Of a DNA stretch of 64,000 bases, positions 1,349 through 31,288 are shown one piece after another (within the stretch, counting starts at the first letter, position 1; each line of letters begins with the position of its first letter). Below the pieces are notes generated by a model that was not told where the DNA came from, ran no database searches, and was given only the letters and a program-made list of their open reading frames with translations. The translations under genes and the position numbers were made by a program. Origin of the DNA: Escherichia phage phiWec188; the sequence record LC739537.1, one strand, 5' to 3'.

Positions 1349-1978
1349 TTAATAGATTTGTTTCAGAAGCATACACATGCGTCCAGTTTCATCCCCTGTA
1401 GATTCCAAGTACAAGGAACCCAAACCACCAATACCGTGAGGATCTTTGGTAGCGTAATAAGAGGTGAATCCAAAAGCTGATCCGGCTTTAGCTCCCAGTC
1501 GGTAGTTGCTTATAATTGGGAACACACTTAAAAGTTGCTCAAGAGCTTGATCAGACTGAAGACACAAGTTATAAAAGAACACATCAAAGGATTTATTCAA
1601 CCCAACATATGTGTTAATTGTATCTCGTTTTGTACCTGTGAAACGGGCGAAGATATCAATAATGTCCCCACGAGTCCCCGAAGAGGCAACACGATAAGCC
1701 CTGATTTTTAAAATTGTGCGGTACTCTTCATCATCAGAACCATTTCGTTCAATACCCATCTCTTCACCAAGGAGATCAAGATAATCCCCTGTGGCTGTAG
1801 ATATTAAACGGTGTTTAGCAAGATAGATCATTGCCTGATCTATCTTTTGCTTTTCACTTGATACGATGTAGAGGAGCTTGACAATGTTAGGGGAAGATTT
1901 AAAATCTTCAATCAACAGATCTTTAACGTCTTCATTGATATTCTCCCAAGTCGTTACATGGTCAACACTCACTGCCAT
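1349..1978 (-). CDS. hypothetical tail/baseplate-associated protein
   Basis: 209-aa ORF, ATG start, tightly packed between fibre genes. Confidence 0.4.
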   Translation of the reverse strand: MAVSVDHVTTWENINEDVKDLLIEDFKSSPNIVKLLYIVSSEKQKIDQAMIYLAKHRLISTATGDYLDLLGEEMGIERNGSDDEEYRTILKIRAYRVASSGTRGDIIDIFARFTGTKRDTINTYVGLNKSFDVFFYNLCLQSDQALEQLLSVFPIISNYRLGAKAGSAFGFTSYYATKDPHGIGGLGSLYLESTGDETGRMCMLLKQIY

Positions 1979-1980
1979 TT

Positions 1981-3468
1981 TTAGACTCCATACTCGTAGG
2001 AAATGTTATCAAGGTCGAAAGACGGGACAATATTGTAGGCAGGAACAATGTTTCCTTCTGTATATTTACTGTCGTCTTCATTATTAAGTTTAACATAAAC
2101 ACGGAGAGAAGTCAAGCGCCCAAAAGCAAGTGCTGCATAAATAACGCCTTTAATCTGGTCGTTAGTTACAGAAGAACCCAATTCGAAGTAGGCTTGCAGG
2201 TTATCCAGTGCTTCAACAATGTTTTCTTTCTCTGTCCCGCTTAACGTTGTACCATTGATTGTCTGGTATACAAGTTTCAAGGAGTACGTTGCAGTAGCAC
2301 CAGGAGAGAAGCGGATAATCTCTTGTCCACCATCTTCCGTCATGACAGTAATGTTAGTTGTGCCATAAGTCAAGGTATTGATTGGTTTAGTGTCGTAAAT
2401 TACTTTAGCAACTTCTTCGGCACTCCCACCGTACACGATTGTCTGGAAACTCATTGCAGGTGCATGTTCCTGATCGTGGATTGTTGGGTTGTCGTAAATC
2501 TTAACCTTGGTTACGCCGTCAGTCTGCAACAAAGCTTTAATGATAGCTGCGCGTGTACCTGCGTTTGCTTCATCAAGGTTATCGTTGAAACGTGAGCGGA
2601 ACTCTGCATCTGTCTCTACATCTCGTCCTGAAGAGAAAGCATAAAAGTTACCAGAATCAAGGTAGCCTGTGAAGGTTGAAGAGATCCCAGAAATGGATTC
2701 CACACCTACCGGATTGTACCCTGCTTCTGATCCTACCACCGGAACTTCACTCCACTTCGTCCCGACAGGAACAGAAGCATAGAATTTTATTGGTGTTACC
2801 AAACCAACAGGTTCTACATCTCCCGCTGCTGCGAAGCCAACGTAAACGTTACTTGCGTCTGTATGGATTAAATCACGATCCGTAGTGGAGAGGTTGTCTC
2901 GAATAAAGTTTGCAAGATCTGTAATGAATGTCGAAGAAGCTGGAGAGAGTACACGACTATTCAAACCACCATCATTTGCACTTTGTGCGTAGAAAGTTAT
3001 GTTAGCCACTCCTGTAGCTGTTGCATTCGCACGCGAGATTTGATATGCTGCTATCTTAGCATTCAACATGGTAGGTGCGCTGACATAATAGTTCATGTCG
3101 TTGTCTGCATTAAAATACGTATCCGTGCCAAGTTCAAAAGTCCAAGGGGCTTTGTTGTTGCTTTTCACATAAGCAAAACCTGAACCAGGTGCAGCGGCAG
3201 AACGATAGAAACCACGTTTGGAGAAGATTTCATCAAGGTAAATACCTTCAGCACCATCCAGTGTCTGGGTATTATAAACTCCTTGCATTCCTTCCCATAA
3301 TGTGTAGTCGGTATAAGCAATAATACGGAACAACTGTCCGAAGACAGTATCCTCCGAAGTCGCTGCATCGGCACCAAAAGTGTTCTTAAGTGCAGTCATA
3401 TAGTTGTTAAGTACATCATCGAATGTCGGGATTACAAATCCCGCATCGGTTAAGCCATATTCATCCAT
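1981..3468 (-). CDS. structural protein (tail fibre or baseplate component)
   Basis: 495-aa ORF, ATG start, within tail gene block; no recognisable catalytic motif. Confidence 0.45.
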   Translation of the reverse strand: MDEYGLTDAGFVIPTFDDVLNNYMTALKNTFGADAATSEDTVFGQLFRIIAYTDYTLWEGMQGVYNTQTLDGAEGIYLDEIFSKRGFYRSAAAPGSGFAYVKSNNKAPWTFELGTDTYFNADNDMNYYVSAPTMLNAKIAAYQISRANATATGVANITFYAQSANDGGLNSRVLSPASSTFITDLANFIRDNLSTTDRDLIHTDASNVYVGFAAAGDVEPVGLVTPIKFYASVPVGTKWSEVPVVGSEAGYNPVGVESISGISSTFTGYLDSGNFYAFSSGRDVETDAEFRSRFNDNLDEANAGTRAAIIKALLQTDGVTKVKIYDNPTIHDQEHAPAMSFQTIVYGGSAEEVAKVIYDTKPINTLTYGTTNITVMTEDGGQEIIRFSPGATATYSLKLVYQTINGTTLSGTEKENIVEALDNLQAYFELGSSVTNDQIKGVIYAALAFGRLTSLRVYVKLNNEDDSKYTEGNIVPAYNIVPSFDLDNISYEYGV

Positions 3469-3737
3469 TACTCATCCTCTTTGTTGTGTTCAGGGGTGGA
3501 AGACCTACCCCAGCGCAGGTCTATTAGATTTTTCATTAGTCGTGAGGGAGTGACCATAAAAACAAAAGCCCAGCCCATCCATTCAGGAATTTCTTTTTCT
3601 ATTCCTAAAAAGATGAACATACCTGTCATTGTCATCATACCTACGGCGTTCCATACTTTAGTGGAACTTACCCCGTTTCCAGGGTAAGTACAAAACATTC
3701 CGCGAACAAACTTCTTAAACCCATTCTCTTTAGGCAT
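3468..3737 (-). CDS. small membrane protein (two hydrophobic segments)
   Basis: 89 aa; hydrophobic stretches [15 protein letters not shown] and [12 protein letters not shown]; overlaps neighbours by start/stop coupling. Confidence 0.3.
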
Positions 3738-5796
3738 AAACTGTATCCTGTAGGTAAACGTTTAAAGGAACATTGCCCATATAGAAAACTTGCGAATGAG
3801 AGTTGACCACAGTAATAGAGTCTTGCATTATTTGTGGGTAAGCCCATATATATTGCTTAAGACCTTCGAACTTGCTATTGTTCAGGACTATGTTCCCGAT
3901 GATCATTTTCCACAAATATGTGCGATAATTTGAATCAGGATCAAAGCCGTACAACGGTGCTAATGTGGCATCTGGTACGAACCCAGCCAAGTAGTGAATA
4001 TCTTCGTAAGGGAATCCCAAAGTCTCGTGCGGTATTGTTACGGCATCGTAGGCTTTAATCATCTTACCTTGAAGCAACCAATCATAACATTCAGAACAAT
4101 AGAAATCGAAAGCTTCTGGAATGTAGTAATCTTTAGGAAAGTTTACTTTCTCCATTAACCCGTTGCCAATGATCGAAGGTAAGAACGGAAGTAATGTCAC
4201 TTGAGCGCCTGGGTATGCAGCGCGTGTATCCGTTGCAAACTTGGTAACTCTCAAACCCAATTTACGAGACAAGAACTCGTAATACTGATCGTATGGGCTT
4301 CCTGTTTTATAGTTATCAATCGTCCCAGCATCTTGTGCAAACAAACCTGTTTCTGTATTGAAAGCCAGTTTTGTCGTATAATCATAAATGCAAGGCAGGT
4401 TGGTAGCTGTATTGTACCACCACCACGGTTCCCCAATTTGAATAACAACCGGAATGTCGTTAGTTGTGGAAATGGAGGCGATCTTGTTAATTACATTCTG
4501 AAGATATTGCATACCCTCATCAATTGTAGGAGACAACACATAGCTCGGAGGCACATAACCTGTAGCAGCTAAAGCATCGTTCCAATCGTGCTGCACCCAC
4601 TCAACAGGGCAGACTGTGCTCATCAATTCGAAACTCAAAGAGTTCATAACTGTGTAGCCGGAGGCTTTGGCGATTGCATGGAAGCTGTTCAACCACGCTT
4701 CAGTCGCTGGGTTAAGAAACACGGAAGTGTTTAATTGCCAGCCATCATTGCCGTCCCATTCAAACTGGTAGTAGTGCGACATTCCGTTGTAATGGTTTAT
4801 CATACCACGATACCCTAAAGCATAAGTGTTGGAAATAACACGTTCAGGGGTAAGATTATACATGTCATCGTAAGATGTGCACATACGAATATCGTGTGCT
4901 GCTTGCACCAAATTGCTAACGTCCATCTGACTAAACCCAGTGTCAGGTTCAAGCAAAGTGAATTTCATTGACGACTGCATATTGTTCATCTGAACAATTT
5001 CTGTTATGTCTTGGTAGCGTGTCGTGATCAATGAGAAGAAGAAATTGTCCACCTGTGTGGTGTCCACTTCAATATCATTGTTCGGTCCAGACTTAATATT
5101 ACTAAAGTCTAAGCGGATATCTGCTGTTTTGCCATCTTCTGATACATTGAAAGCATAATAACTCAAATCAATGTAGTGAATCGTCTTATCAACCAATGTT
5201 AAAGTAATAGTTGGGATCAACGGAGCATCATTGAACCCTGGCATGTTTGCACTAAGTTCTAATTTAAACCAGAGCTTCTCTTCACTTAAATCTTGGTGAG
5301 GAAGAAAACCTACGCCCTTATGATCAAAGGTGTCTGTTGTGTGCCAAATAACACCTGCCAAACCTGCTGCTGTACGGTTAACAAAGTACGCCGTAAAGGA
5401 ATCCCCACTGGAAATTATGGAACAACTCTCTGTTGCTTGGGAGTCGATAGTCCAGAACTTAGGAGAGAACATTTTAGCTTTGGTTGAGGTCCATGTAATC
5501 GGAGTGGTGTTCTCTTGTCTCGTCGTAATGACACACTCGATCTTGGTTTCAACCATCGTGTTGTTTTCGCTGATACCAGAAACTTCTAAAAAGAAGTTAA
5601 TATCTATTGAGTTTTTTGGTCGTTCGTAAACATCAACCACAATTGTTGCAGAGTCGGCGTTAGCAGGGAACACTAAGGTTCCCGACTTCGCTACATAATC
5701 TCTACCGGAGACTGCCGTTCCATCGACAGTCTTGTAGTTGAACGAACTCACATTTACTCGTTTGTCTCTTGTGACAGTAAATGTTGCCTGTTTCAT
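3730..5796 (-). CDS. large tail protein (possible receptor-binding protein or tailspike)
   Basis: 688-aa ORF with ATG start in the distal tail module; Trp/Tyr-rich globular region. Confidence 0.45.
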
Positions 5797-23225: not shown

Positions 23226-24791
23226 TTAATTCGATAAGTTTGCTGCTGATGGATCAAGAGCCGAAACGCTGGTGGATGTACCTGTACCTGCGGTCGCCAT
23301 ACCGTCTCCAGAACGTGAAGTTTTATCTGGCATGAATGTCTCCATATATTCTACGAATTTATCCTTGTCAGAAACAATCTCGTCTGGTATACGATAATCA
23401 AAGCCTAACTTCTCTAAGAACTCGTTGATAATTTCCGCTGTAAGTGGAATAGCTCCTGCTGCAACAATCTGTTGGATCGCTTTAGCGTTTACTTCAATAT
23501 CAGGATCACCCATTTCACCACTAACAAACTTCGGCATATCTTCATCGGAAAGGAAGATATTGTTTAAGCGAAGTGCTTGTGGAATGAGTTGAGAGTTAAT
23601 AGCTTCAACAACAATATCTACATCGCGTTCAATGAAGTGTGAGAGCAGGGTCTGTTTATTATCGGACAATGCAAAGCTGCCAGCGTCCCCGTCACCCATT
23701 ATCAATACACCCGCACCAAAACGGTTGTAAATATCCAGTTTACGTTGTTTGATCAGTTCTTGTGTATCAAACTGTTTACCAGCCCCTTCTACGCCCTGGA
23801 ACACCAGATCGTACTGACGCATAACAGTTCCTTCATAAACGTCTGAAGGTAATACCATGTATGCTTGCTCACCAGAGTGCAGGTTGGCAATGTTTGCCTG
23901 TAGAACTCGTAAGGACTGTGCTTCATCTCCGGCAGGATCAAGAGATGCGCGGTTAAGAATATCGCTCGGTACTTTCAGAACAGGCATACCGCCCAAATCT
24001 TTAGAAACCCCGATAACTTCGAATTCTTGAATTAAAGATTTTTCACGCCAACTACGATAAACAGCCAACAGAGGTGACACACCCAAAGGATTGTTTTCTG
24101 TGATATTGCTACCCACAAAAATAACCTTGTTCATAGGGATTTGACGTACACCCAGTTGCAACTTACTGTTACCTGGAGCCAACATGGTATTAGTGATGTT
24201 CTGGTTTACCGAAATAACGGTGCGACCATCATCAGAATAGGTGAAAGGGTTTGCCATATCCAAAGTATCTTGCGGTCGGAAAGCAAGTTTAGTGAGGCGG
24301 TAATAGCCATAGTATGGACTCTTCGGATCTTCGTCAAGTTCAAACACCTTTTCAGCAAATGCAAAACCGAACTGTTTGTAAGTAAGAAGAGATCTCACAT
24401 ACTGACGTAATGGTGCTTGCATGTTGCGTAACATATATTCAATAAACTTTGCAGCTTTTCTTGACTTGGCAGAGTTTACGTTGTATTTTATTTTAAAGTC
24501 GAAAAATGCTCTGTCTACGAAAATGTATGTTGCGTCAAGAGCGGTAGCAACATCTGGGTCTTCACCCATTTCCTTATAAGTACGGATGTTTTCAGGAAAG
24601 CGTGTTTCATACGGTTGCATGAAGTTAGTGAATGCTTTGATTGAGTTCAACCCAATCGTCCCGATTTCAGGAGAGAGAAGTAAACTCTTTTCTTTCTCTG
24701 CCTGTTTTGACGGAGAGAGAGCAGCTTTGTTCACTGCACTTTGTTTCCAGTAATCCGACTTCTTAGTGTACTGTCTTTTTTCTGTTGACAC
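23226..24791 (-). CDS. portal protein (putative)
   Basis: 521 aa; GTG start with GGAGGA RBS; directly downstream of terminase large subunit. Confidence 0.55.
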   Translation of the reverse strand: MSTEKRQYTKKSDYWKQSAVNKAALSPSKQAEKEKSLLLSPEIGTIGLNSIKAFTNFMQPYETRFPENIRTYKEMGEDPDVATALDATYIFVDRAFFDFKIKYNVNSAKSRKAAKFIEYMLRNMQAPLRQYVRSLLTYKQFGFAFAEKVFELDEDPKSPYYGYYRLTKLAFRPQDTLDMANPFTYSDDGRTVISVNQNITNTMLAPGNSKLQLGVRQIPMNKVIFVGSNITENNPLGVSPLLAVYRSWREKSLIQEFEVIGVSKDLGGMPVLKVPSDILNRASLDPAGDEAQSLRVLQANIANLHSGEQAYMVLPSDVYEGTVMRQYDLVFQGVEGAGKQFDTQELIKQRKLDIYNRFGAGVLIMGDGDAGSFALSDNKQTLLSHFIERDVDIVVEAINSQLIPQALRLNNIFLSDEDMPKFVSGEMGDPDIEVNAKAIQQIVAAGAIPLTAEIINEFLEKLGFDYRIPDEIVSDKDKFVEYMETFMPDKTSRSGDGMATAGTGTSTSVSALDPSAANLSN

Positions 24792-24894
24792 TTTCTTCCT
24801 CCGGCACTGTGCTTAAAGATCAATAGGGCAAGGGTTAAATAAATTAACCCGCCCATAAAGTCATTGTACACTTTAAAGTAACTTTTGTCAACAA

Positions 24895-26973
24895 TTATCT
24901 TCGACGAGGGGCACTTACCGTAGTGAAATGCCTTGAGTTCATGTTACTGTACCCAGTAGGTGCATTTGTTGTTGCAGGTATTGCTACAGCCTTGTGTGCC
25001 GTCTCTTTCGCCAGAGTGTTGAAGCAAGATGCTGCGGCATCTGGAAGGTCATCTTTAAGCATTGCTGTAGATCGTTCACCGTTAAAAGATTCCAATTCTT
25101 TATAAAAGTGATTCAAAGTTTCAATGTTAGGAAATGAATCTTCCACGATATAAACAAAGCCGTTCTGACAGGCACTACTGAATGGCATGAAACGTTGGAG
25201 TTTCTTTTTGTTACCTGGCATTGCGTCCGGTTTAACAACGAAGCCTTCAACAATAAGTTTTTTAGCCGATTCCGTGTATTCGATGAGTCCAGCACCAGAC
25301 GGGTCTTTTGGAAGAACGATCTGAACATCCGGTCCATCAATCTTAGCTTGTTGGAGGATCAGGTTATCCCTGTCACCAGGTAAGCGTCGGAATCTTCCGA
25401 AAACTTTACTCTTCTCGTCTATAGCGTCGTAATCATAATCCCCGAAGATATAAATGTTCCCGTTTAGGTCTTTACCCATCTTAACAGATGCTGTATAGTC
25501 AGGATAACGATAACGTTCACTTGGAACGGATACAGCTTTATCCCATGCACGCATATACTTCATGTTGTTAGGAACATCTTTGTATTCTATCTTGTGAAGC
25601 CATTCACGTTGGAAGAATGATTCCTCTTGAATACGGGCAAACCAACAACCATCCAGAAGCTGTGCTCGCTTTATCGCTGTCTGCGATTTAAGAGAAGCCA
25701 GGTATTTCGGGTTAAGGCGAATCAGTTCAGGGTTATCAAAGATCGTACCGCCGATAAACACAAACGTTTGAGGTTCGATCGTAACAACCTCACCAGTGTT
25801 TGGGTTCTCCATGAAACAGTTTTCAGGATACTTCTCTTTAAGTTCCTCTGCTGTGTCGGCAAATACAGGCTCATCATTTACAATAATGAAGTAGGTTTGT
25901 TTACCACACATATCTTCACGAGGATAACCACCTTCGTCAAGGTAAGGTAACACCCAGTTCAGTACCCAACTATCCGCATCGGGGTTACAGGTACAAAGCA
26001 TGAAAGATGTTTCTGACTCGGAACGCATACGACCGAGAAGATAAAGCATCTCATACTGGGTGAAATGGGTGAGTTCGTCAAAACCGACCATACTGTACTG
26101 TGTACCCTGATGGTTAGTCTCGGCTGTAACGTTATCATTCTCCAGATGGTCAAACTTCAAAGTACCACCGTTAGTGGCCTCAAAGATAATGTCCATCGTA
26201 CTTTCTTTTACGTGCGGTTGTAAAGGCAGGTACAGACGTTTAGCTTCTGTAAACAAACCACCTGGCTTACGGTGTGCAGTGGTGTTCTTACGGAATAAGA
26301 TACCACCGAACAAAGGGTCTTTATAGGCAAACTTAAGAGCTTTTAGCAGTAGCAGACGAGACTTGCCGCTATTGCCAGTAACGAAGCAGTGATTGCCCCG
26401 TCTAAGGACAATATAGCTACTTGGAGTTTCAAAGCAATATTTTTTATCATCGGATGTAATAACCTCGTGTATTTTTAAATAAGTGTTTTGTTTGCCTGGG
26501 ATGTTAAACGGAACGCGCTTACCAAAAGGATCTTCAATGTATCCTTTCAGTGGTGCTCCTGCTTGTTGCAGAGCAATAAGATCTCCCACAGCAATCTCAA
26601 AATGTTTTTTGGATTTCTTTTTCTTGTAAAAGACGAAACGATGTTCCATACTCAATTCTTGGAACACTCCTGCACCGTTAGTGATTCGGTACAAGTTATC
26701 ATCTTTCATATCATATTCTACGAAGTAAGGCGTGACCAATTCTAAGCGTTTTCTCTTAGGATTATACTGATAGATATCTTCTCCGCTATATTGGCTTATT
26801 TGTTTCCAGCCGTCACGGGTAAGATACTCTGTTTCAGCAGATACACAACCTGCGGCACCACCGTAAATCATAACTTCCGGCATTAAATCCATTGCCAGGG
26901 TTTGTTTACCTGGTTGAGCTTTTACTTCGATATCAGCGCCAGCTAAACTGCCAGCCGCTTTTTTCTTAGCCAC
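24895..26973 (-). CDS. terL: terminase large subunit, apparently intein-containing
   Basis: 692 aa; GTG start with AAGGAGG RBS; nuclease-domain-like C-terminal half; N-terminal ATPase region interrupted by a Hint-like insertion (see intein feature). Confidence 0.7.
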   Translation of the reverse strand: MAKKKAAGSLAGADIEVKAQPGKQTLAMDLMPEVMIYGGAAGCVSAETEYLTRDGWKQISQYSGEDIYQYNPKRKRLELVTPYFVEYDMKDDNLYRITNGAGVFQELSMEHRFVFYKKKKSKKHFEIAVGDLIALQQAGAPLKGYIEDPFGKRVPFNIPGKQNTYLKIHEVITSDDKKYCFETPSSYIVLRRGNHCFVTGNSGKSRLLLLKALKFAYKDPLFGGILFRKNTTAHRKPGGLFTEAKRLYLPLQPHVKESTMDIIFEATNGGTLKFDHLENDNVTAETNHQGTQYSMVGFDELTHFTQYEMLYLLGRMRSESETSFMLCTCNPDADSWVLNWVLPYLDEGGYPREDMCGKQTYFIIVNDEPVFADTAEELKEKYPENCFMENPNTGEVVTIEPQTFVFIGGTIFDNPELIRLNPKYLASLKSQTAIKRAQLLDGCWFARIQEESFFQREWLHKIEYKDVPNNMKYMRAWDKAVSVPSERYRYPDYTASVKMGKDLNGNIYIFGDYDYDAIDEKSKVFGRFRRLPGDRDNLILQQAKIDGPDVQIVLPKDPSGAGLIEYTESAKKLIVEGFVVKPDAMPGNKKKLQRFMPFSSACQNGFVYIVEDSFPNIETLNHFYKELESFNGERSTAMLKDDLPDAAASCFNTLAKETAHKAVAIPATTNAPTGYSNMNSRHFTTVSAPRRR
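26371..26847 (-). other. putative mini-intein (about 159 aa) in the terminase P-loop
   Basis: Starts CVSAETEYLTRDG (resembles DnaE-type intein N-terminal block C-L-S-x-E-T-E-I-L-T), internal SMEH (TxxH-like), ends FVTGN followed by Ser. Excision joins GGAAG to SGKS, giving a canonical Walker A GAAGSGKS. Too short for a homing-endonuclease domain. Confidence 0.55.
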
Positions 26974-26982
26974 TTCTCCTCC

Positions 26983-27309
26983 TTACTTACTGATAATCCC
27001 TTTCTCTTGCAGAGCCTTAATGTAGTTTTGTAAACCGATCACTTTGTTTCGGTCTTGACTCCAGAGAACATTATTTGTGGTCCCGTTATCAACTACTTCA
27101 GAACGAGAAACACCTTTAGCAATTTGTTGATCTGTGTACGGTACAGGTTCACTTACACCTTCCATTAAAGAAGAGTCTGGTCCTCTGACTTCCTGCACTG
27201 CTACAGCTTTACATTCGTCAATTAGAATCGGGGAGGCTTTTGTTGAGGATGTGCAACCCGTCATCATTAGGGCCGAAGCAAGACATAGACCCAGTAGTAG
27301 TTTTTGCAT
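26983..27309 (-). CDS. o-spanin (outer-membrane lipoprotein, Rz1-like)
   Basis: 108 aa; signal peptide with lipobox LMMTGC; 5' end overlaps the 3' end of the upstream i-spanin gene. Confidence 0.5.
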   Translation of the reverse strand: MQKLLLGLCLASALMMTGCTSSTKASPILIDECKAVAVQEVRGPDSSLMEGVSEPVPYTDQQIAKGVSRSEVVDNGTTNNVLWSQDRNKVIGLQNYIKALQEKGIISK

Positions 27310-27625
27310 AATTTGTTTTCTCCTCGTTTACCTTCTTCTCCTTGTTTGCTAAATCTTTTTTCAATTTAGCATTCTTTTCGGAGAGGGAAGCTATTTGGTT
27401 GTTAAGTGCCAGACGTTCATCATCGGCTTTCTTTTGAAGAACATCGAAGTCTTGTTTAGCTTTTGCTTGTTGTTGTTGATAGATAGTTACTTGGTGTTGT
27501 TCTCCTGCTGCGTAACCATTATCATACAGAGCCTTTCCGCCGAAGTACAAACCAGCTAAAAGTGCAACTAACAGAAGAATAACGTAAAACCACTTACTCT
27601 TCAGAATCATTGTTATCAGTGTCAT
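27218..27625 (-). CDS. i-spanin (Rz-like)
   Basis: 135 aa; N-terminal transmembrane helix (WFYVILLLVALLAGLYFGG) then charged coiled-coil region; overlapped by the o-spanin gene. Confidence 0.5.
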   Translation of the reverse strand: MTLITMILKSKWFYVILLLVALLAGLYFGGKALYDNGYAAGEQHQVTIYQQQQAKAKQDFDVLQKKADDERLALNNQIASLSEKNAKLKKDLANKEKKVNEEKTNYAKTTTGSMSCFGPNDDGLHILNKSLPDSN

Positions 27626-28835: not shown

Positions 28836-28914
28836 TGGAGGCGGGAATCGGATTCGAACCGATGATCTCCAGCATATGAAACTGGCGAGGACGACCAAAC
28901 TCCTCTATCCCGCT
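28836..28914 (-). tRNA. tRNA-Met (anticodon CAT)
   Basis: Manual fold: acceptor stem, D-stem GAGG/CCTC, anticodon stem CCAGT/GCTGG with loop TTCATAT, T-arm ATCGG-TTCGAAT-CCGAT, encoded CCA. Position 1:72 is A-C mismatched. Confidence 0.65.
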
Positions 28915-28918
28915 ATTA

Positions 28919-28991
28919 GGTGTCCCGTGCTGGATTCGAACCAGCATCACAATAGTTGTGGATCTCTTATCCTGTAAGTCTAACGGGAAAC
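28919..28991 (-). tRNA. tRNA-like element / probable tRNA pseudogene
   Basis: Canonical T-arm GCTGG-TTCGAAT-CCAGC and 6/7-bp acceptor stem, but no 5-7-5 anticodon stem-loop can be drawn (CACAA-CTA-TTGTG has a 3-nt loop). Confidence 0.3.
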
Positions 28992-29065
28992 TGGTTGTTT
29001 CGACAAGAATCGAACTTGTATCTCACGATTATCAGTCGTGGGTTCTACCATTGAACTACGAAACA
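28992..29065 (-). tRNA. tRNA-Ile (anticodon GAT)
   Basis: Acceptor TGTTTCG/CGAAACA, D-stem GTTC/GAAC, anticodon stem CACGA/TCGTG with loop CTGATAA, T-arm ACAAG-TTCGATT-CTTGT, CCA encoded. Confidence 0.7.
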
Positions 29066-29071
29066 TTTAAT

Positions 29072-29146
29072 TGGTCAGCATGGAGAATTTCGAAATCTCG
29101 GCCCCCTCGTCCCAAACGAGGTGCTCTGCCACTGAGCTACACGCTG
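29072..29146 (-). tRNA. tRNA-Pro (anticodon TGG)
   Basis: D-arm GCTC-AGTGGCA-GAGC, anticodon stem CCTCG/CGAGG with loop TTTGGGA, CCA encoded; T-stem has one T-T mismatch. Confidence 0.6.
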
Positions 29147-29346
29147 TTATTAAAAAATCTCACGTCTTATACAAGCTAACCTTTTGCCTGACGCATGAAA
29201 TTTAAATACATTCTAAAGGTACACCGTAAAAGATTGTCGGGGCGATACTTCAAAAACATACCGATCCGTAAATCGATAATCAGACAAACTTCGACGGCTC
29301 CTCGTTTTTAACTTCACACTTAAGGTAGTGACTCACCTTTGTTATA

Positions 29347-29422
29347 TGGCTGGTCTGTCTGGATTTGAACCAAACCTACGACAGTCAAAGTGTCGTGTGC
29401 TACCGGACTACACTACAAACCA
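29347..29422 (-). tRNA. tRNA-Gln (anticodon TTG)
   Basis: Acceptor TGGTTTG/CAGACCA, anticodon stem CGACA/TGTCG with loop CTTTGAC, T-arm TTTGG-TTCAAAT-CCAGA, discriminator G, CCA. Confidence 0.7.
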
Positions 29423-29512
29423 TTTAATGAAGGGCAACCAGAAGAGGTGTGAGAGAAGGAGAAAACCATAAGTAAAAGAGAAAGTTTTCTGGCAACCCTT
29501 TATTAAATAATT

Positions 29513-29586
29513 TGGAGCGTTCTACGAGTTTCGAACTCGTGCCGCCGACTTGGAAGGACGGAATGCTACCGCTACACCAAGAACGC
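29513..29586 (-). tRNA. tRNA-Gly (anticodon TCC), one mismatch in anticodon stem
   Basis: Acceptor GCGTTCT/AGAACGC, anticodon loop CTTCCAA, T-arm ACGAG-TTCGAAA-CTCGT, discriminator T, CCA; anticodon stem CCGTC/GTCGG has a T-T pair. Confidence 0.55.
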
Positions 29587-30082
29587 CCTACATCTTTACT
29601 ATACTACATTTTACTATCAGTTGTCAATAGTTTTATTGGGTGGGACAGTGACGAGTATCCCATTGGGTGACTAACCCTACGTTCGGTTGTGATTAATCTC
29701 CTGGGTGTCGCTTGCAACACTGGAAAACTCTCACGTCGATGGGAGAATCCGCTTCTTCTTTACCCCATCCAACCCTACTCCGGTCAAGTTTCAGGTGACT
29801 CTTTTTGTGATCAACACAATACTAAGAACACTGTCTTTCGAGCAGACCTTGTGCACAGGATACGACGATCAATCACAGTGCTCTTAATGTTGTGTTGTGA
29901 ATATTAACCTCGGAACTCATTACCGCGCTTCGGCTCGACCTTATTACAGGTTAGTGAATGTCTTTCTTCCGCTTACATTCAATAAATTTGCTTTCTTCAC
30001 AACGATAAGAACACTTAACAGAAGATAGGTCTGATTGCCTCGGATGATTTCTCAGTAGCCTAAATGTTCTTACCTGTTATGT

Positions 30083-30158
30083 TGGTGCTCCAAGTAGGAC
30101 TCGAACCTACGACCTCATGCTTACAAGGCAAGTGCTCTACCAACTGAGCTATTGAAGC
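30083..30158 (-). tRNA. tRNA-Thr (anticodon TGT)
   Basis: D-arm GCTC-AGTTGGTA-GAGC, anticodon loop CTTGTAA, T-arm GTAGG-TTCGAGT-CCTAC, CCA; overall very close to enterobacterial tRNA-Thr as I recall it. Confidence 0.7.
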
Positions 30159-30277
30159 GTATTGCGCCCCTTCAGCCATGCTTGATGTTGACCAGAACAC
30201 AGTTAAACTGTGGGAGGAGGAACACCGCAGGGGGCTTCAGTTGGACGACTTACAGGGAGCGACCCTGTTTCTTTTCT

Positions 30278-30354
30278 GGGACTCGGCAGGATTCGATACC
30301 TGCAATTCCAGAAGCCTCTTGGCGACTGAGGGTTTACCTTAACTCTACAAGTCC
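30278..30354 (-). tRNA. tRNA-like element (atypical, no canonical anticodon arm, no encoded CCA)
   Basis: 7-bp acceptor stem GGACTTG/CGAGTCC and T-arm-like GCAGG-TATCGAAT-CCTGC (8-nt loop), but the central region does not fold into a 5-7-5 anticodon arm. Confidence 0.25.
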
Positions 30355-30510
30355 ATAATTCTTAAATACTTTGGAGCCTTACTGACAAACCGTTAGTTTG
30401 TAACATAGCGTATTTCCATTCTGGGGCACCGCCTGTGAATGTAATTCCAATACAAACTTTCTCAAGATCAAACCAATTATCAAATAACATAAGAACCTCC
30501 AGTTATAATT

Positions 30511-30594
30511 TGGTGTGAGATGATGGATTCGAACCACCGCGCCTTTCAGAACAGATTTACAGTCTGCTGCAATCGACCACTCTGCCAATCTCAC
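30511..30594 (-). tRNA. tRNA-Tyr (anticodon GTA)
   Basis: Perfect acceptor stem GTGAGAT/ATCTCAC, anticodon stem GCAGA/TCTGT with loop CTGTAAA, long variable arm, T-arm GGTGG-TTCGAAT-CCATC, CCA. Confidence 0.7.
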
Positions 30595-30719
30595 AAAATT
30601 ATTTTTAAAGTAGCCAGTATTCGCGGTACTGACTATGCGGTATCGGGGGATGGTGAGAGCCATCTGCCGAAAGTTTACTCTGTTAAAGTAAGAAACAACA
30701 AGCTACATTAAAAACAACT

Positions 30720-30805
30720 TGGCGGTAGATGTAGGACTCGAACCTACACGCCGTTTCCGACTACAGTTTAGCAAACTGTCGTGGCTACCATTTCACCAAT
30801 CTACC
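30720..30805 (-). tRNA. tRNA-Ser (anticodon GCT)
   Basis: Acceptor GGTAGAT/ATCTACC, anticodon stem ACAGT/ACTGT with loop TTGCTAA, long variable arm, T-arm GTAGG-TTCGAGT-CCTAC, discriminator G, CCA. Confidence 0.7.
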
Positions 30806-30811
30806 TAAATT

Positions 30812-30901
30812 TGGAGGAAGGTAATGGAGTCGAACCATCACCGTATCTCTACAATGGGCCAGGGTTCAAATCTGGTTGCGTACCACTACGCCCTACCTTC
30901 C
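30812..30901 (-). tRNA. tRNA-Ser (anticodon TGA)
   Basis: Acceptor GGAAGGT/ACCTTCC, anticodon loop TTTGAAC on stem CCAG/CTGG, long variable arm, T-arm GATGG-TTCGACT-CCATT, CCA. Confidence 0.6.
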
Positions 30902-31136
30902 ATACATTTAATCTAACATAAAACGATGTTGATTGTCAACACCTTTTAAAACATTTTATTATGAATGGTGACTCCACCAACCCCCGTTCTCCACGAACGG
31001 TACTCTTCGAGCAATCTACCCTTGCAATCAAACGTTGTACACCGTTAGCTTGCTCATGCATATTTGCCTCATTCTCTGCCAACCATGATCAGTGGTAGGG
31101 TTCAAATCACTTGAGCTAATTCATACTAAAATGTTC

Positions 31137-31211
31137 TGGTGTCTTTACAAGGAATCGAACCTTGACTAAGAGTTTAGAAGACTCCTGTGCTATCCATTAC
31201 ACCATAAAGAC
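31137..31211 (-). tRNA. tRNA-Arg (anticodon TCT)
   Basis: Acceptor GTCTTTA/TAAAGAC, D-arm GTGT-AATGGATA-GCAC, anticodon loop CTTCTAA, T-arm CAAGG-TTCGATT-CCTTG, CCA. Confidence 0.7.
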
Positions 31212-31213
31212 GT

Positions 31214-31288
31214 TGGTGGCCCTGACTGGTTTCGATCCAGTTGCCTATCGGTTATGAGCCGACTGCTCTCCCATTGAGCTACAGGGCC
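31214..31288 (-). tRNA. tRNA with CAT anticodon (Met or lysidine-type Ile2)
   Basis: Acceptor GGCCCTG/CAGGGCC, D-arm GCTC-AATGGGA-GAGC, anticodon loop CTCATAA, T-arm ACTGG-ATCGAAA-CCAGT, CCA; acceptor resembles Ile2-type tRNAs. Confidence 0.6.

What the first reader, a model, noticed from the sequence alone, without database searches (positions are those of the whole stretch)
26371..26847. Probable mini-intein splitting the Walker A P-loop of the terminase large subunit
Residues 43-201 of the 692-aa TerL begin with CVSAETEYLTRDG, closely matching intein N-terminal block A (compare DnaE-type C-L-S-Y-E-T-E-I-L-T as recalled), contain an SxxH block-B-like motif (LSMEH) and end in FVTGN followed by Ser. 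Removing them fuses GGAAG to SGKS, giving a canonical Walker A GAAGSGKS, and leaves a 533-aa TerL of typical size. At about 159 aa it lacks a homing-endonuclease domain. The penultimate residue is Gly rather than the usual His, so splicing chemistry may be atypical. Packaging would depend on protein splicing.
Basis: partly seen in the sequence, partly recalled or inferred. Interest (0 to 1): 0.7.

Follow-up and report, generated by a model that had tools for sequence, protein, structure and literature searches.

The report
Unannotated mini-intein inside phage terminase P-loop
The large terminase gene of this phAPEC8/phi92-like coliphage carries a 159-residue self-splicing protein insert (a mini-intein) in the middle of its ATP-binding loop; such inserts are common in phage terminases, but this one has gone unannotated and has an unusual mix of catalytic residues.

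Summary
ORF 24895-26973 (-) is a 692-aa TerL. Residues 43-201 (window 26371-26847) start with Cys, carry LSMEH, and end in TGN followed by Ser. Removing them gives YGGAAGSGKS, exactly the sequence of insert-free homologues.

The insert is an intein:
- A profile of 23 allelic inserts hits the solved AceL NrdHF intein (6zgq, E 1.2e-11).
- The AlphaFold model (pLDDT 88.8) matches only intein/HINT structures.
- Larger alleles at the same site fold as intein plus LAGLIDADG homing endonuclease.
- The same element sits in RtcB and in other P-loop proteins.
- Its dN/dS is about 0.05, the same as the extein.

The penultimate Gly is not a defect. AceL NrdHF also ends TGN|S and splices fast.

The unusual point is the signature. 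Cys1, Cys at block F:4, Thr G:5 and Gly G:6 are each conserved in 76-100% of about 225 family copies. This mixes class 1 and class 3 marks, so the entry nucleophile cannot be assigned from sequence.

The intein is fixed across the roughly 133 Stephanstirmvirinae-like phage records that match, and none of the public records I inspected annotates it. It is a new member of a known kind, with a possible mechanistic twist. Splicing itself was not tested.

The parts
24895..26973 (-). TerL precursor gene: 692 aa, 78.7 kDa, GTG start with AGGAGG Shine-Dalgarno upstream
26848..26973 (-). N-extein, TerL residues 1-42, ending ...MIYGGAAG
26848..26862 (-). First half of Walker A (GGAAG, residues 38-42)
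   Evidence: contiguous GGAAGSGKS in insert-free homologues P0019-21, P0033
26371..26847 (-). Mini-intein: 159 aa, 18.6 kDa, HINT fold, no homing endonuclease
26806..26847 (-). Block A / N1: CVSAETEYLTRDGW. Cys1, Thr6, Gly13 and Trp14 are invariant in the 23-member alignment
26635..26655 (-). Block B / N3: LSMEHRF, with Ser66 = B:7, His69 = B:10, Arg70 = B:11, Phe71 = B:12
   Evidence: matches S65/H68/R69/M70 of AceL NrdHF
26416..26445 (-). Block F / C2: KKYCFETPSS. Cys138 (codon 26434-26436) sits at F:4 and Pro142 lies four residues later
   Evidence: compare C124 and P128 of AceL NrdHF
26398..26403 (-). Arg149-Arg150, at least 90% conserved in the C-terminal alignment; candidate substitutes for the missing F:13 and G:6 histidines (inference)
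26368..26391 (-). Block G / C1 plus the +1 residue: HCFVTGN|S, with Thr157 = G:5, Gly158 = G:6, Asn159 = G:7, Ser202 = +1
26359..26370 (-). Second half of Walker A (SGKS, TerL residues 202-205)
24895..26370 (-). C-extein (residues 202-692 and stop): rest of the ATPase domain and the nuclease domain

Best explanation
Residues 43-201 of TerL are a functional, cis-splicing mini-intein with no endonuclease. TerL is made as a 78.7-kDa precursor whose Walker A loop is broken between Gly42 and Ser202, so it cannot bind ATP or package DNA. The HINT domain folds and cleaves the Gly42-Cys43 bond. It passes the N-extein acyl group to the side chain of Ser202. It then releases itself by cyclisation of Asn159. 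An O-to-N shift leaves a normal peptide bond, giving a 60.2-kDa TerL with GAAGSGKS and a free 18.6-kDa intein.

Shown here:
- the anatomy and the fold;
- the homology to a biochemically proven intein;
- presence/absence and size polymorphism at one site;
- occurrence of the same element in unrelated host proteins;
- strong purifying selection on the insert.

Inferred: that splicing occurs, and the route it takes.

On the route, the intein belongs to a large phage-borne family in which both Cys1 (the class 1 nucleophile) and Cys at block F:4 (the class 3 nucleophile) are almost invariant. Thr G:5 and Gly G:6 are also conserved, and there is no His at F:13. My preferred route, at about 0.4, has three steps. 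Cys1 makes the linear thioester. Cys138, which lies between the two junctions, takes the acyl group as a branched thioester. Ser202 then takes it from Cys138. Asn159 cyclisation would be helped by Arg70, and perhaps Arg149/150, in place of the usual histidines, as proposed for Arg69 in AceL NrdHF.

The intein lost its LAGLIDADG endonuclease and has since been inherited vertically with TerL throughout the phAPEC8/phi92 group.
For: - Insert-free homologues have a contiguous GGAAGSGKS. Inserts of 146-328 aa all sit at the same position and share C1, (S/T)xxH, YCF and (T/S)GN|S.
- The family profile hits AceL NrdHF intein 6zgq at E 1.2e-11.
- The AF2 model has pLDDT 88.8 and pTM 0.81. All 50 listed Foldseek PDB hits are HINT structures; the best is 6zgq at E 4.8e-7, TM about 0.7.
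- A large allele models as intein plus LAGLIDADG endonuclease: TliVMA 8e-14, PI-PfuI, PI-SceI, I-DmoI.
- The same element occurs in RtcB at GVDIG|CGM, in Av-05 TerL and in many other P-loop proteins. There are 12,579 profile hits, and 232 full copies in the best 150 proteins.
- dN/dS of the intein is 0.04-0.08, similar to the extein, and both diverge in step.
- In-silico splicing completes and improves the terminase Pfam matches.
- AceL NrdHF carries S65/H68/R69, C124...P128 and T144-G145-N146|S. It splices in minutes, and G145H abolishes splicing (PMC7891396). The window intein has S66/H69/R70, C138...P142 and T157-G158-N159|S.
- Family conservation: C1 225/225, H B:10 225/225, C F:4 221/225, G G:6 221/225, N 225/225.
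Against: - No experiment shows that this protein splices.
- The single sequence gives no hit in Pfam, NCBIfam or PDB. Recognition depends on the family profile and on a predicted structure.
- The usual penultimate His, the F:13 His and the F:4 Asp are all missing.
- The acyl-relay route is only an inference from the joint conservation of two cysteines. No structure coordinates were available to measure distances.
- A few natural copies lack one or the other cysteine, which could mean either one is dispensable.
Confidence: 0.87

Rival explanations
1. Ordinary class 1 intein. Cys1 forms the thioester and Ser202 attacks it directly. Cys138 is not a nucleophile and only replaces the usual Asp F:4 as a polar or acid-base residue.
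For: - Cys1 is present in 225/225 aligned copies.
- B:7 is Ser/Thr in 216/225 copies.
- B:12 is V/F/M/I/L rather than Trp.
- 25% of copies have Cys at +1, which is reported for only one known class 3 intein (PMC5222942).
- Four copies keep Cys1 but have Ser or Gly at F:4. One of these has regained His at G:6.
Against: - Cys at F:4 is kept in 98% of copies across very divergent hosts, more than a generic polar role would need.
- The nearest characterised relative uses exactly this Cys as the nucleophile, 3.0 A from the scissile carbonyl.
- Thr G:5, which holds His B:10 in class 3 inteins, is also conserved.
Confidence: 0.3
2. Class 3 intein in disguise. Cys138 attacks the Gly42-Cys43 peptide bond directly, as in AceL NrdHF. 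Cys1 is not needed for chemistry and is kept for another reason, such as folding or redox control.
For: - The closest solved and tested relative is class 3, with the same S-x-x-H-R, C...P and TGN|S motifs.
- Three family copies lack Cys1 (Pro or Lys at position 1). Two of them clearly keep the F:4 Cys.
Against: - Cys1 is invariant in about 99% of copies, whereas position 1 varies in recognised class 3 inteins.
- Trp B:12 is absent.
- The working definition of class 3 used by Hoffmann et al. excludes inteins with Cys at position 1.
Confidence: 0.17
3. Conditional, redox-gated intein. Cys1 and Cys138 form a disulfide that holds the precursor inactive until it is reduced, so packaging would be tuned to the state of the host cytoplasm.
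For: - Two nearly invariant cysteines are predicted to lie in one active site.
- Disulfide control of intein splicing has precedents in the papers listed (for example PMC6195587, title and abstract only).
Against: - No direct evidence.
- The E. coli cytoplasm is reducing.
- The family occurs in phages of many habitats.
- This reading is compatible with, not exclusive of, the other routes.
Confidence: 0.1
4. Not a splicing element. Either the 159 aa are a permanent inserted domain of TerL, or they are removed at the RNA or translation level by an intron or by ribosomal bypass.
For: - No splicing data exist.
- Single-sequence searches against intein models are negative.
Against: - The insert breaks Walker A between conserved residues, while homologues have the loop intact.
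- Every catalytic intein position is conserved.
- The reading frame is continuous and under protein-level purifying selection, with dN/dS about 0.05. That would not be expected for an intron or a bypassed gap.
- Rfam finds nothing in 24500-27500 at E up to 1.
- The same element sits in RtcB and other proteins.
Confidence: 0.03

Closest known systems
AceL NrdHF intein (naturally split class 3 intein from an Antarctic lake phage-like contig; PDB 6zgq; Hoffmann et al. 2020, PMC7891396)
   Same: - It is the best sequence-profile hit (E 1.2e-11) and the best structural hit.
- It is a similar size (146 aa versus 159 aa).
- It has the same motif residues: S-x-x-H-R in block B, Cys at F:4 followed by Pro four residues later, no His at F:13 or G:6, and a T-G-N|S ending.
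- B:12 is a plain hydrophobic residue, not Trp.
   Different: - AceL NrdHF starts with Ala1 and is a proven class 3 intein. The window intein and about 99% of its family start with Cys.
- AceL NrdHF is split into two genes around a GIY-YIG endonuclease and sits in a ribonucleotide reductase. This one is contiguous and sits in TerL.
Mycobacteriophage TerL inteins, especially the P-loop insertions TerL1-a and TerL1-b (Kelley et al. 2016, PMC5050341)
   Same: - They are inteins in the ATPase domain of the phage large terminase, within Walker A.
- Splicing is needed to form the active site.
- Both mini forms and LAGLIDADG-bearing forms occur.
- Representatives were shown to splice.
   Different: - They are in a different terminase family (Terminase_1, versus Terminase_6 here).
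- The insertion point differs: TerL1-a lies between Lys and Thr of GKT with TerL1-b one residue away, whereas here it is G|SGKS.
- They are reported as class 1 or WCT class 3, not with the C1 / C-F:4 / TGN signature.
Canonical class 3 (WCT) inteins: MP-Be DnaB, Msm DnaBi1, MchDnaB1
   Same: - Cys at F:4, Thr at G:5 and Ser/Thr at +1.
- A preference for P-loops of phage and helicase-type ATPases.
   Different: - They lack Cys1, have Trp at B:12 and keep the penultimate His.
- They are not detectably closer to this family by sequence. They are absent from the profile hit list at E up to 10 and rank 25th or lower by Foldseek.
Class 1 mini-inteins (Npu/Ssp DnaE, Ssp DnaB, gp41-1)
   Same: - Cys1, (T/S)xxH, terminal Asn and the HINT fold.
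   Different: They have Asp at F:4 and His at F:13 and G:6. This intein has Cys, Val and Gly at those three positions.

Membership tests
Intein (protein-splicing HINT domain) | HINT fold | tested here: met
   AF2 model with pLDDT 88.8; all 50 listed Foldseek PDB hits are inteins, BIL domains or Hedgehog autoprocessing domains
Intein (protein-splicing HINT domain) | In-frame insert in a conserved host motif, absent from homologues whose motif is contiguous | tested here: met
   GGAAG|...|SGKS here versus GGAAGSGKS in P0019-21 and P0033; Pfam terminase match is completed after removal
Intein (protein-splicing HINT domain) | Block B (T/S)xxH, C-terminal Asn, and Ser/Thr/Cys at +1 | tested here: met
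   S66-x-x-H69 and N159|S202; family counts H 225/225, N 225/225, +1 S/C/T 232/232
Intein (protein-splicing HINT domain) | Penultimate His (G:6); typical, not obligatory | tested here: not met
   Gly158, and Gly in 221/225 family copies; AceL NrdHF has Gly145 and G145H abolishes its splicing
Intein (protein-splicing HINT domain) | Excision of the insert with ligation of the exteins | not testable with these tools
   Needs expression followed by SDS-PAGE and mass spectrometry
Class 1 inteins | Cys/Ser/Thr at position 1 | tested here: met
   Cys43 of TerL is intein Cys1; 225/225 aligned family copies
Class 1 inteins | Asp at F:4 and His at F:13 (typical catalytic helpers) | tested here: not met
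   Cys138 at F:4 and Val at F:13, taking the register from YCF = YDL. The register is my own alignment to remembered class 1 motifs, supported by the C124 equivalence
Class 1 inteins | Obligatory linear thioester at residue 1 | not testable with these tools
   Needs C1A and C138A mutants and trapping of intermediates
Class 3 inteins (WCT) | No Cys/Ser/Thr nucleophile at position 1 | tested here: not met
   Cys1 is present; only 3 of 232 family copies lack it
Class 3 inteins (WCT) | Trp at B:12 | tested here: not met
   Phe71; the family has V/F/M/I/L, with Trp in 2/225. AceL NrdHF also deviates here, with Met70
Class 3 inteins (WCT) | Cys at F:4 | tested here: met
   Cys138; 221/225 copies
Class 3 inteins (WCT) | Thr at G:5 | tested here: met
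   Thr157; family T 170 and S 38 of 225
Class 3 inteins (WCT) | Branched thioester intermediate on the F:4 Cys | not testable with these tools
   Biochemical assay needed
Mini-intein (no homing endonuclease) | No endonuclease domain between blocks B and F | tested here: met
   159 aa. Residues 75-125 model as short strands and one helix that also exist ahead of the endonuclease in the large allele. No LAGLIDADG Pfam hit. The large allele matches PI-PfuI, PI-SceI and I-DmoI
Terminase_6-type large terminase (TerL) | Pfam Terminase_6N ATPase domain above the gathering score | tested here: met
   63.1 bits for the precursor and 69.9 bits after in-silico splicing, against a cut-off of 22; relatives are annotated as TerL

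The most novel reading that the evidence does not exclude
This TerL intein represents a very large, mostly phage-borne intein family with a fixed two-cysteine active site: Cys1 plus Cys F:4, with Thr G:5, Gly G:6 and no catalytic histidines in blocks F and G. The profile gives 12,579 hits at E <= 0.001, and the signature counts come from the 225 best-scoring copies.

On this reading the family splices by an acyl relay, Cys1 to Cys F:4 to the +1 residue. That would make it the living intermediate between class 1 and class 3 inteins. Class 3 behaviour, as in AceL NrdHF, would then arise simply by loss of Cys1, independently of the canonical WCT clade. Because the host is E. coli and the phages are in common use, this could be tested directly.
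Probability: 0.3. Interest if true: 0.7.

Novelty: new member of a known kind. Interest (0 to 1): 0.42.

Why it matters
Practical value:
- TerL of the phAPEC8/phi92 group (Stephanstirmvirinae), which includes phages used in therapy and in model collections, is mis-described in the databases. It appears as a plain 690-aa terminase or as a 'terminase with endonuclease domain'.
- The mature enzyme is 533 aa, and DNA packaging depends on a protein-splicing step.

Scientific value:
- The intein pairs the class 1 and class 3 nucleophiles, and it is the closest cis-splicing relative found here of the fast AceL NrdHF split intein.
- It therefore offers an E. coli-native system for asking how class 3 splicing evolved.
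- It is also a possible new small, histidine-independent intein for protein engineering.

On its own, an intein in a terminase P-loop is ordinary.

Tried and rejected
- Single-sequence searches of the 159 aa against Pfam, NCBIfam and PDB sequences gave nothing meaningful. Only the family profile and the fold comparison work.
- Scanning each family member against Pfam gave only weak Intein_splicing (2 members, E 0.003) and LAGLIDADG_3 (3 members, E 0.0076) hits.
- A profile of only the C-terminal 52 residues, searched against PDB to obtain a residue-level alignment with 6zgq blocks F and G, returned only chance fibronectin and gelatinase hits. The crystallised protein carries C124A and N146A. 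I used the residue numbers given in the paper instead.
- I suspected that VGDLIALQQAG (intein residues 87-97) was a LAGLIDADG remnant, because MAFFT paired it with LRLQVAVMADG. I rejected this. In the models, helix 87-95 corresponds to helix 86-95 of the large allele, which lies before the endonuclease.
- Tori and Perler 2011, on WCT inteins that start with Ser or Cys, could not be read, and the supplement of Tori 2010 is not held. What I say about that paper is from memory.
- Model coordinates are not exposed to scripts, so the Cys1-Cys138-Ser202 distances could not be measured.
- A group I intron or other RNA element was ruled out: Rfam finds nothing in 24500-27500.
- No other intein copies were found in a six-frame scan of the window.
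Full report
**Observation**

The minus-strand ORF 24895..26973 encodes a 692-aa protein. It starts at a GTG preceded by AGGAGG. Pfam calls it a T4-type large terminase: Terminase_6N at 63.1 bits, matching residues 202-460 from profile position 8.

The window is a phAPEC8/phi92-like myovirus. Its TerL is 100% identical to that of Escherichia phage phiWec190 and about 90% identical to that of phAPEC8. Residues 43-201 map exactly to window 26371-26847. They read CVSAETEYLTRDGW...LSMEHRF...KKYCFETPSS...HCFVTGN and are followed by SGKS.

**Is it an insertion?**

Yes. I aligned 25 homologues and surveyed 120.
- Proteins of about 505-520 aa, at 53-63% identity, read YGGAAGSGKSRL without interruption.
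- Others carry inserts of 146, 149, 152, 158-159, 194, 246, 301 or 323-328 aa at exactly this position.
- All inserts begin with Cys and end (T/S)GN before SGKS.
- After in-silico removal, the Terminase_6N match extends to profile positions 1-214 and rises to 69.9 bits. Terminase_3 crosses its curated cut-off (25.1 versus 23.2 bits; it scored 19.3 before).

**Is it an intein?**

The single sequence hits nothing in Pfam, NCBIfam or PDB sequences. This probably explains why annotation pipelines miss it. Family-level and structural evidence is clear.
- A profile of 23 allelic inserts (A2) finds the solved AceL NrdHF intein (6zgq) at E 1.2e-11, followed by PolII and RecA inteins.
- AlphaFold2 on that alignment gives pLDDT 88.8 and pTM 0.81.
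- All 50 listed Foldseek PDB hits are inteins, bacterial intein-like domains or Hedgehog autoprocessing domains. The best is 6zgq, at E 4.8e-7 and TM about 0.7.
- A 323-aa allele from the same site (from P0025) models at pLDDT 88.9. It matches the TliVMA intein (8e-14), PI-PfuI, PI-SceI and then I-DmoI, so it is an intein with a LAGLIDADG homing endonuclease. The window copy is therefore the endonuclease-less form.
- The element is mobile between hosts. The same motifs occur in RtcB of Corynebacterium phage Lederberg (GVDIG|CVDADTEYLTP...AYCFTVTTGFLVLRRSGNVFITGN|CGM), in Avunavirus Av-05 TerL, and in Bacillus and Pseudomonas phage RtcB genes.
- A profile search of 1.84 billion representative proteins gives 12,579 hits at E <= 0.001 and 212 at E <= 1e-30.
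- The best 150 proteins hold 232 full copies. Their median size is 313 aa; 42 are under 200 aa. The -1 residue is Gly in 151. The +1 residue is Ser in 146, Cys in 59 and Thr in 27. The commonest C-extein starts are SGKS, SGKT, CGKT and TGKT, which are P-loops.

**Selection and history**

- Between the window, phAPEC8, phi92, KP13-26 and 05F01, the intein's dN and dS track those of the extein.
- dN/dS is 0.04-0.08. dS is near saturation, so the ratio is rough.
- The intein query matches about 133 phage records at 60% identity or better, essentially the same set that matches TerL at that level.
- The intein is thus fixed, vertically inherited and under protein-level constraint throughout the group. 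It is not a decaying remnant.
- Its G+C content is somewhat lower than the extein's (0.386 versus 0.439).

**Chemistry**

Hoffmann et al. (PMC7891396) showed that AceL NrdHF is a class 3 intein. In that intein:
- Cys124 at motif C2:4 (F:4) attacks the N-terminal scissile bond.
- Ser65, His68 and Arg69 in block B help catalysis.
- Thr144 holds His68 in place.
- There is no His at C2:13 or C1:6.
- G145H kills activity.
- The intein ends T-G-N|S and splices in minutes.

The window intein has Ser66, His69, Arg70, Cys138 (with Pro four residues later, as C124/P128), and Thr157-Gly158-Asn159|Ser.

The real oddity is position 1. AceL NrdHF has Ala1, whereas this family has Cys1. Across the 225 copies aligned at both ends:

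| Position | Residue counts |
|---|---|
| 1 | Cys 225 |
| B:7 | Ser 143, Thr 73 |
| B:10 | His 225 |
| B:12 | V/F/M/I/L; Trp only 2 |
| F:4 | Cys 221; Ser 3; Gly 1 |
| G:5 | Thr 170, Ser 38 |
| G:6 | Gly 221 |
| G:7 | Asn 225 |

Only 3 of 232 copies lack Cys1 (Pro or Lys instead). The four copies without Cys at F:4 keep Cys1, and one of them has regained His at G:6.

So the family has class 1 marks (Cys1, S/T-x-x-H, no Trp at B:12, 25% Cys at +1) together with class 3 marks (Cys F:4, Thr G:5). It fails one defining feature of each class as currently written: Asp F:4 with the histidines for class 1, and the absence of a position-1 nucleophile for class 3.

Sequence alone cannot say which cysteine opens the N-terminal junction. 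I favour a hand-over from Cys1 to Cys138 to Ser202, at about 0.4. Pure class 1 is at about 0.3 and pure class 3 at about 0.17. These are inferences from conservation, not measurements.

**Comparison with what is known**

Inteins in phage large terminases are commonplace, including within Walker A, and several have been shown to splice (Kelley et al. 2016, PMC5050341; the 2025 actinobacteriophage survey). The kind is known. What appears to be new is the member.
- The phAPEC8, phi92, JohannJBalmer and KP13-26 records give no intein annotation.
- Two records say only 'terminase with endonuclease (domain)'.
- The BASEL table lists 0 inteins for EmilieFrey, which carries this intein.
- A 2024 paper that includes a phi92-like phage says no inteins have been reported in coliphages.
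- Full-text searches for intein with phAPEC8, Phapecoctavirus or phi92 found no description.

I could not establish whether intein specialists have already described the C1 / C-F:4 / TGN family as such. The key 2011 paper is not held.

**Verdict**

This is a real but ordinary kind of element, a mini-intein in a terminase P-loop, and it has been overlooked in a well-studied coliphage group. Its catalytic signature is hybrid, which is worth a bench test. Splicing itself, and the route it takes, remain to be shown.

Noticed in passing
L002 (Escherichia phage nepoznato NC_052658) 1480-4524; also P0017: In this close relative, TerL carries the mini-intein and is additionally split after about residue 413 into two CDSs, with an HNH homing-endonuclease gene between them. 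Rfam finds no group I intron at gathering score. The window's TerL is not interrupted there.
   Followed up: partly
L005 (Corynebacterium phage Lederberg NC_048790) 2285-4396: The RtcB ('tRNA splicing ligase') gene holds a full-size member of the same intein family at the GVDIG|CGM active-site motif, with Cys at +1. The record does not annotate it as an intein.
   Followed up: partly
L004 (Escherichia phage Av-05 NC_025830) 2411-3541: Av-05 TerL has a larger allele of the same intein at the same G|SGKS site. The annotated CDS then stops shortly after the Walker B-like GFDE (…FIGFDEGRTVCSL*), which suggests a further interruption or a frameshift.
   Followed up: no
window 28836-31288 (-): A cluster of 11 tRNA genes (Met, Ile, Pro, Gln, Gly, Thr, Tyr, Ser x2, Arg, Met) lies upstream of the lysis and terminase genes, as in phAPEC8.
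   Followed up: partly
window 26983-27309 (-) and 27218-27625 (-): Two overlapping ORFs lie immediately upstream of TerL. The 108-aa ORF begins with a lipoprotein-type signal (…ALMMTGC), and the 135-aa ORF has an N-terminal membrane helix. They look like an o-spanin / i-spanin pair; phAPEC8 annotates an 'Rz-like spanin' here.
   Followed up: no
P0122 (2602 aa), P0161, P0163, P0180 (representative-library proteins): Some very long proteins carry three to five copies of this intein family in tandem or in nearby positions, several only a few residues apart (for example ...GN|SGYQ|C...). Their source organisms are unknown.
   Followed up: no
P0155 residues 39-360; P0246 residues 100-319; P0164 residues 53-370: These rare family copies have Pro or Lys instead of Cys at position 1. 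P0155 and P0246 clearly keep the F:4 Cys and the TGN end; the register is ambiguous in P0164. They are either natural class-3-like variants or dead copies.
   Followed up: partly
window 26371-26847: The intein has lower G+C than the rest of TerL (0.386 versus 0.439; GC3 0.352 versus 0.403), even though it has long co-diverged with the extein.
   Followed up: partly
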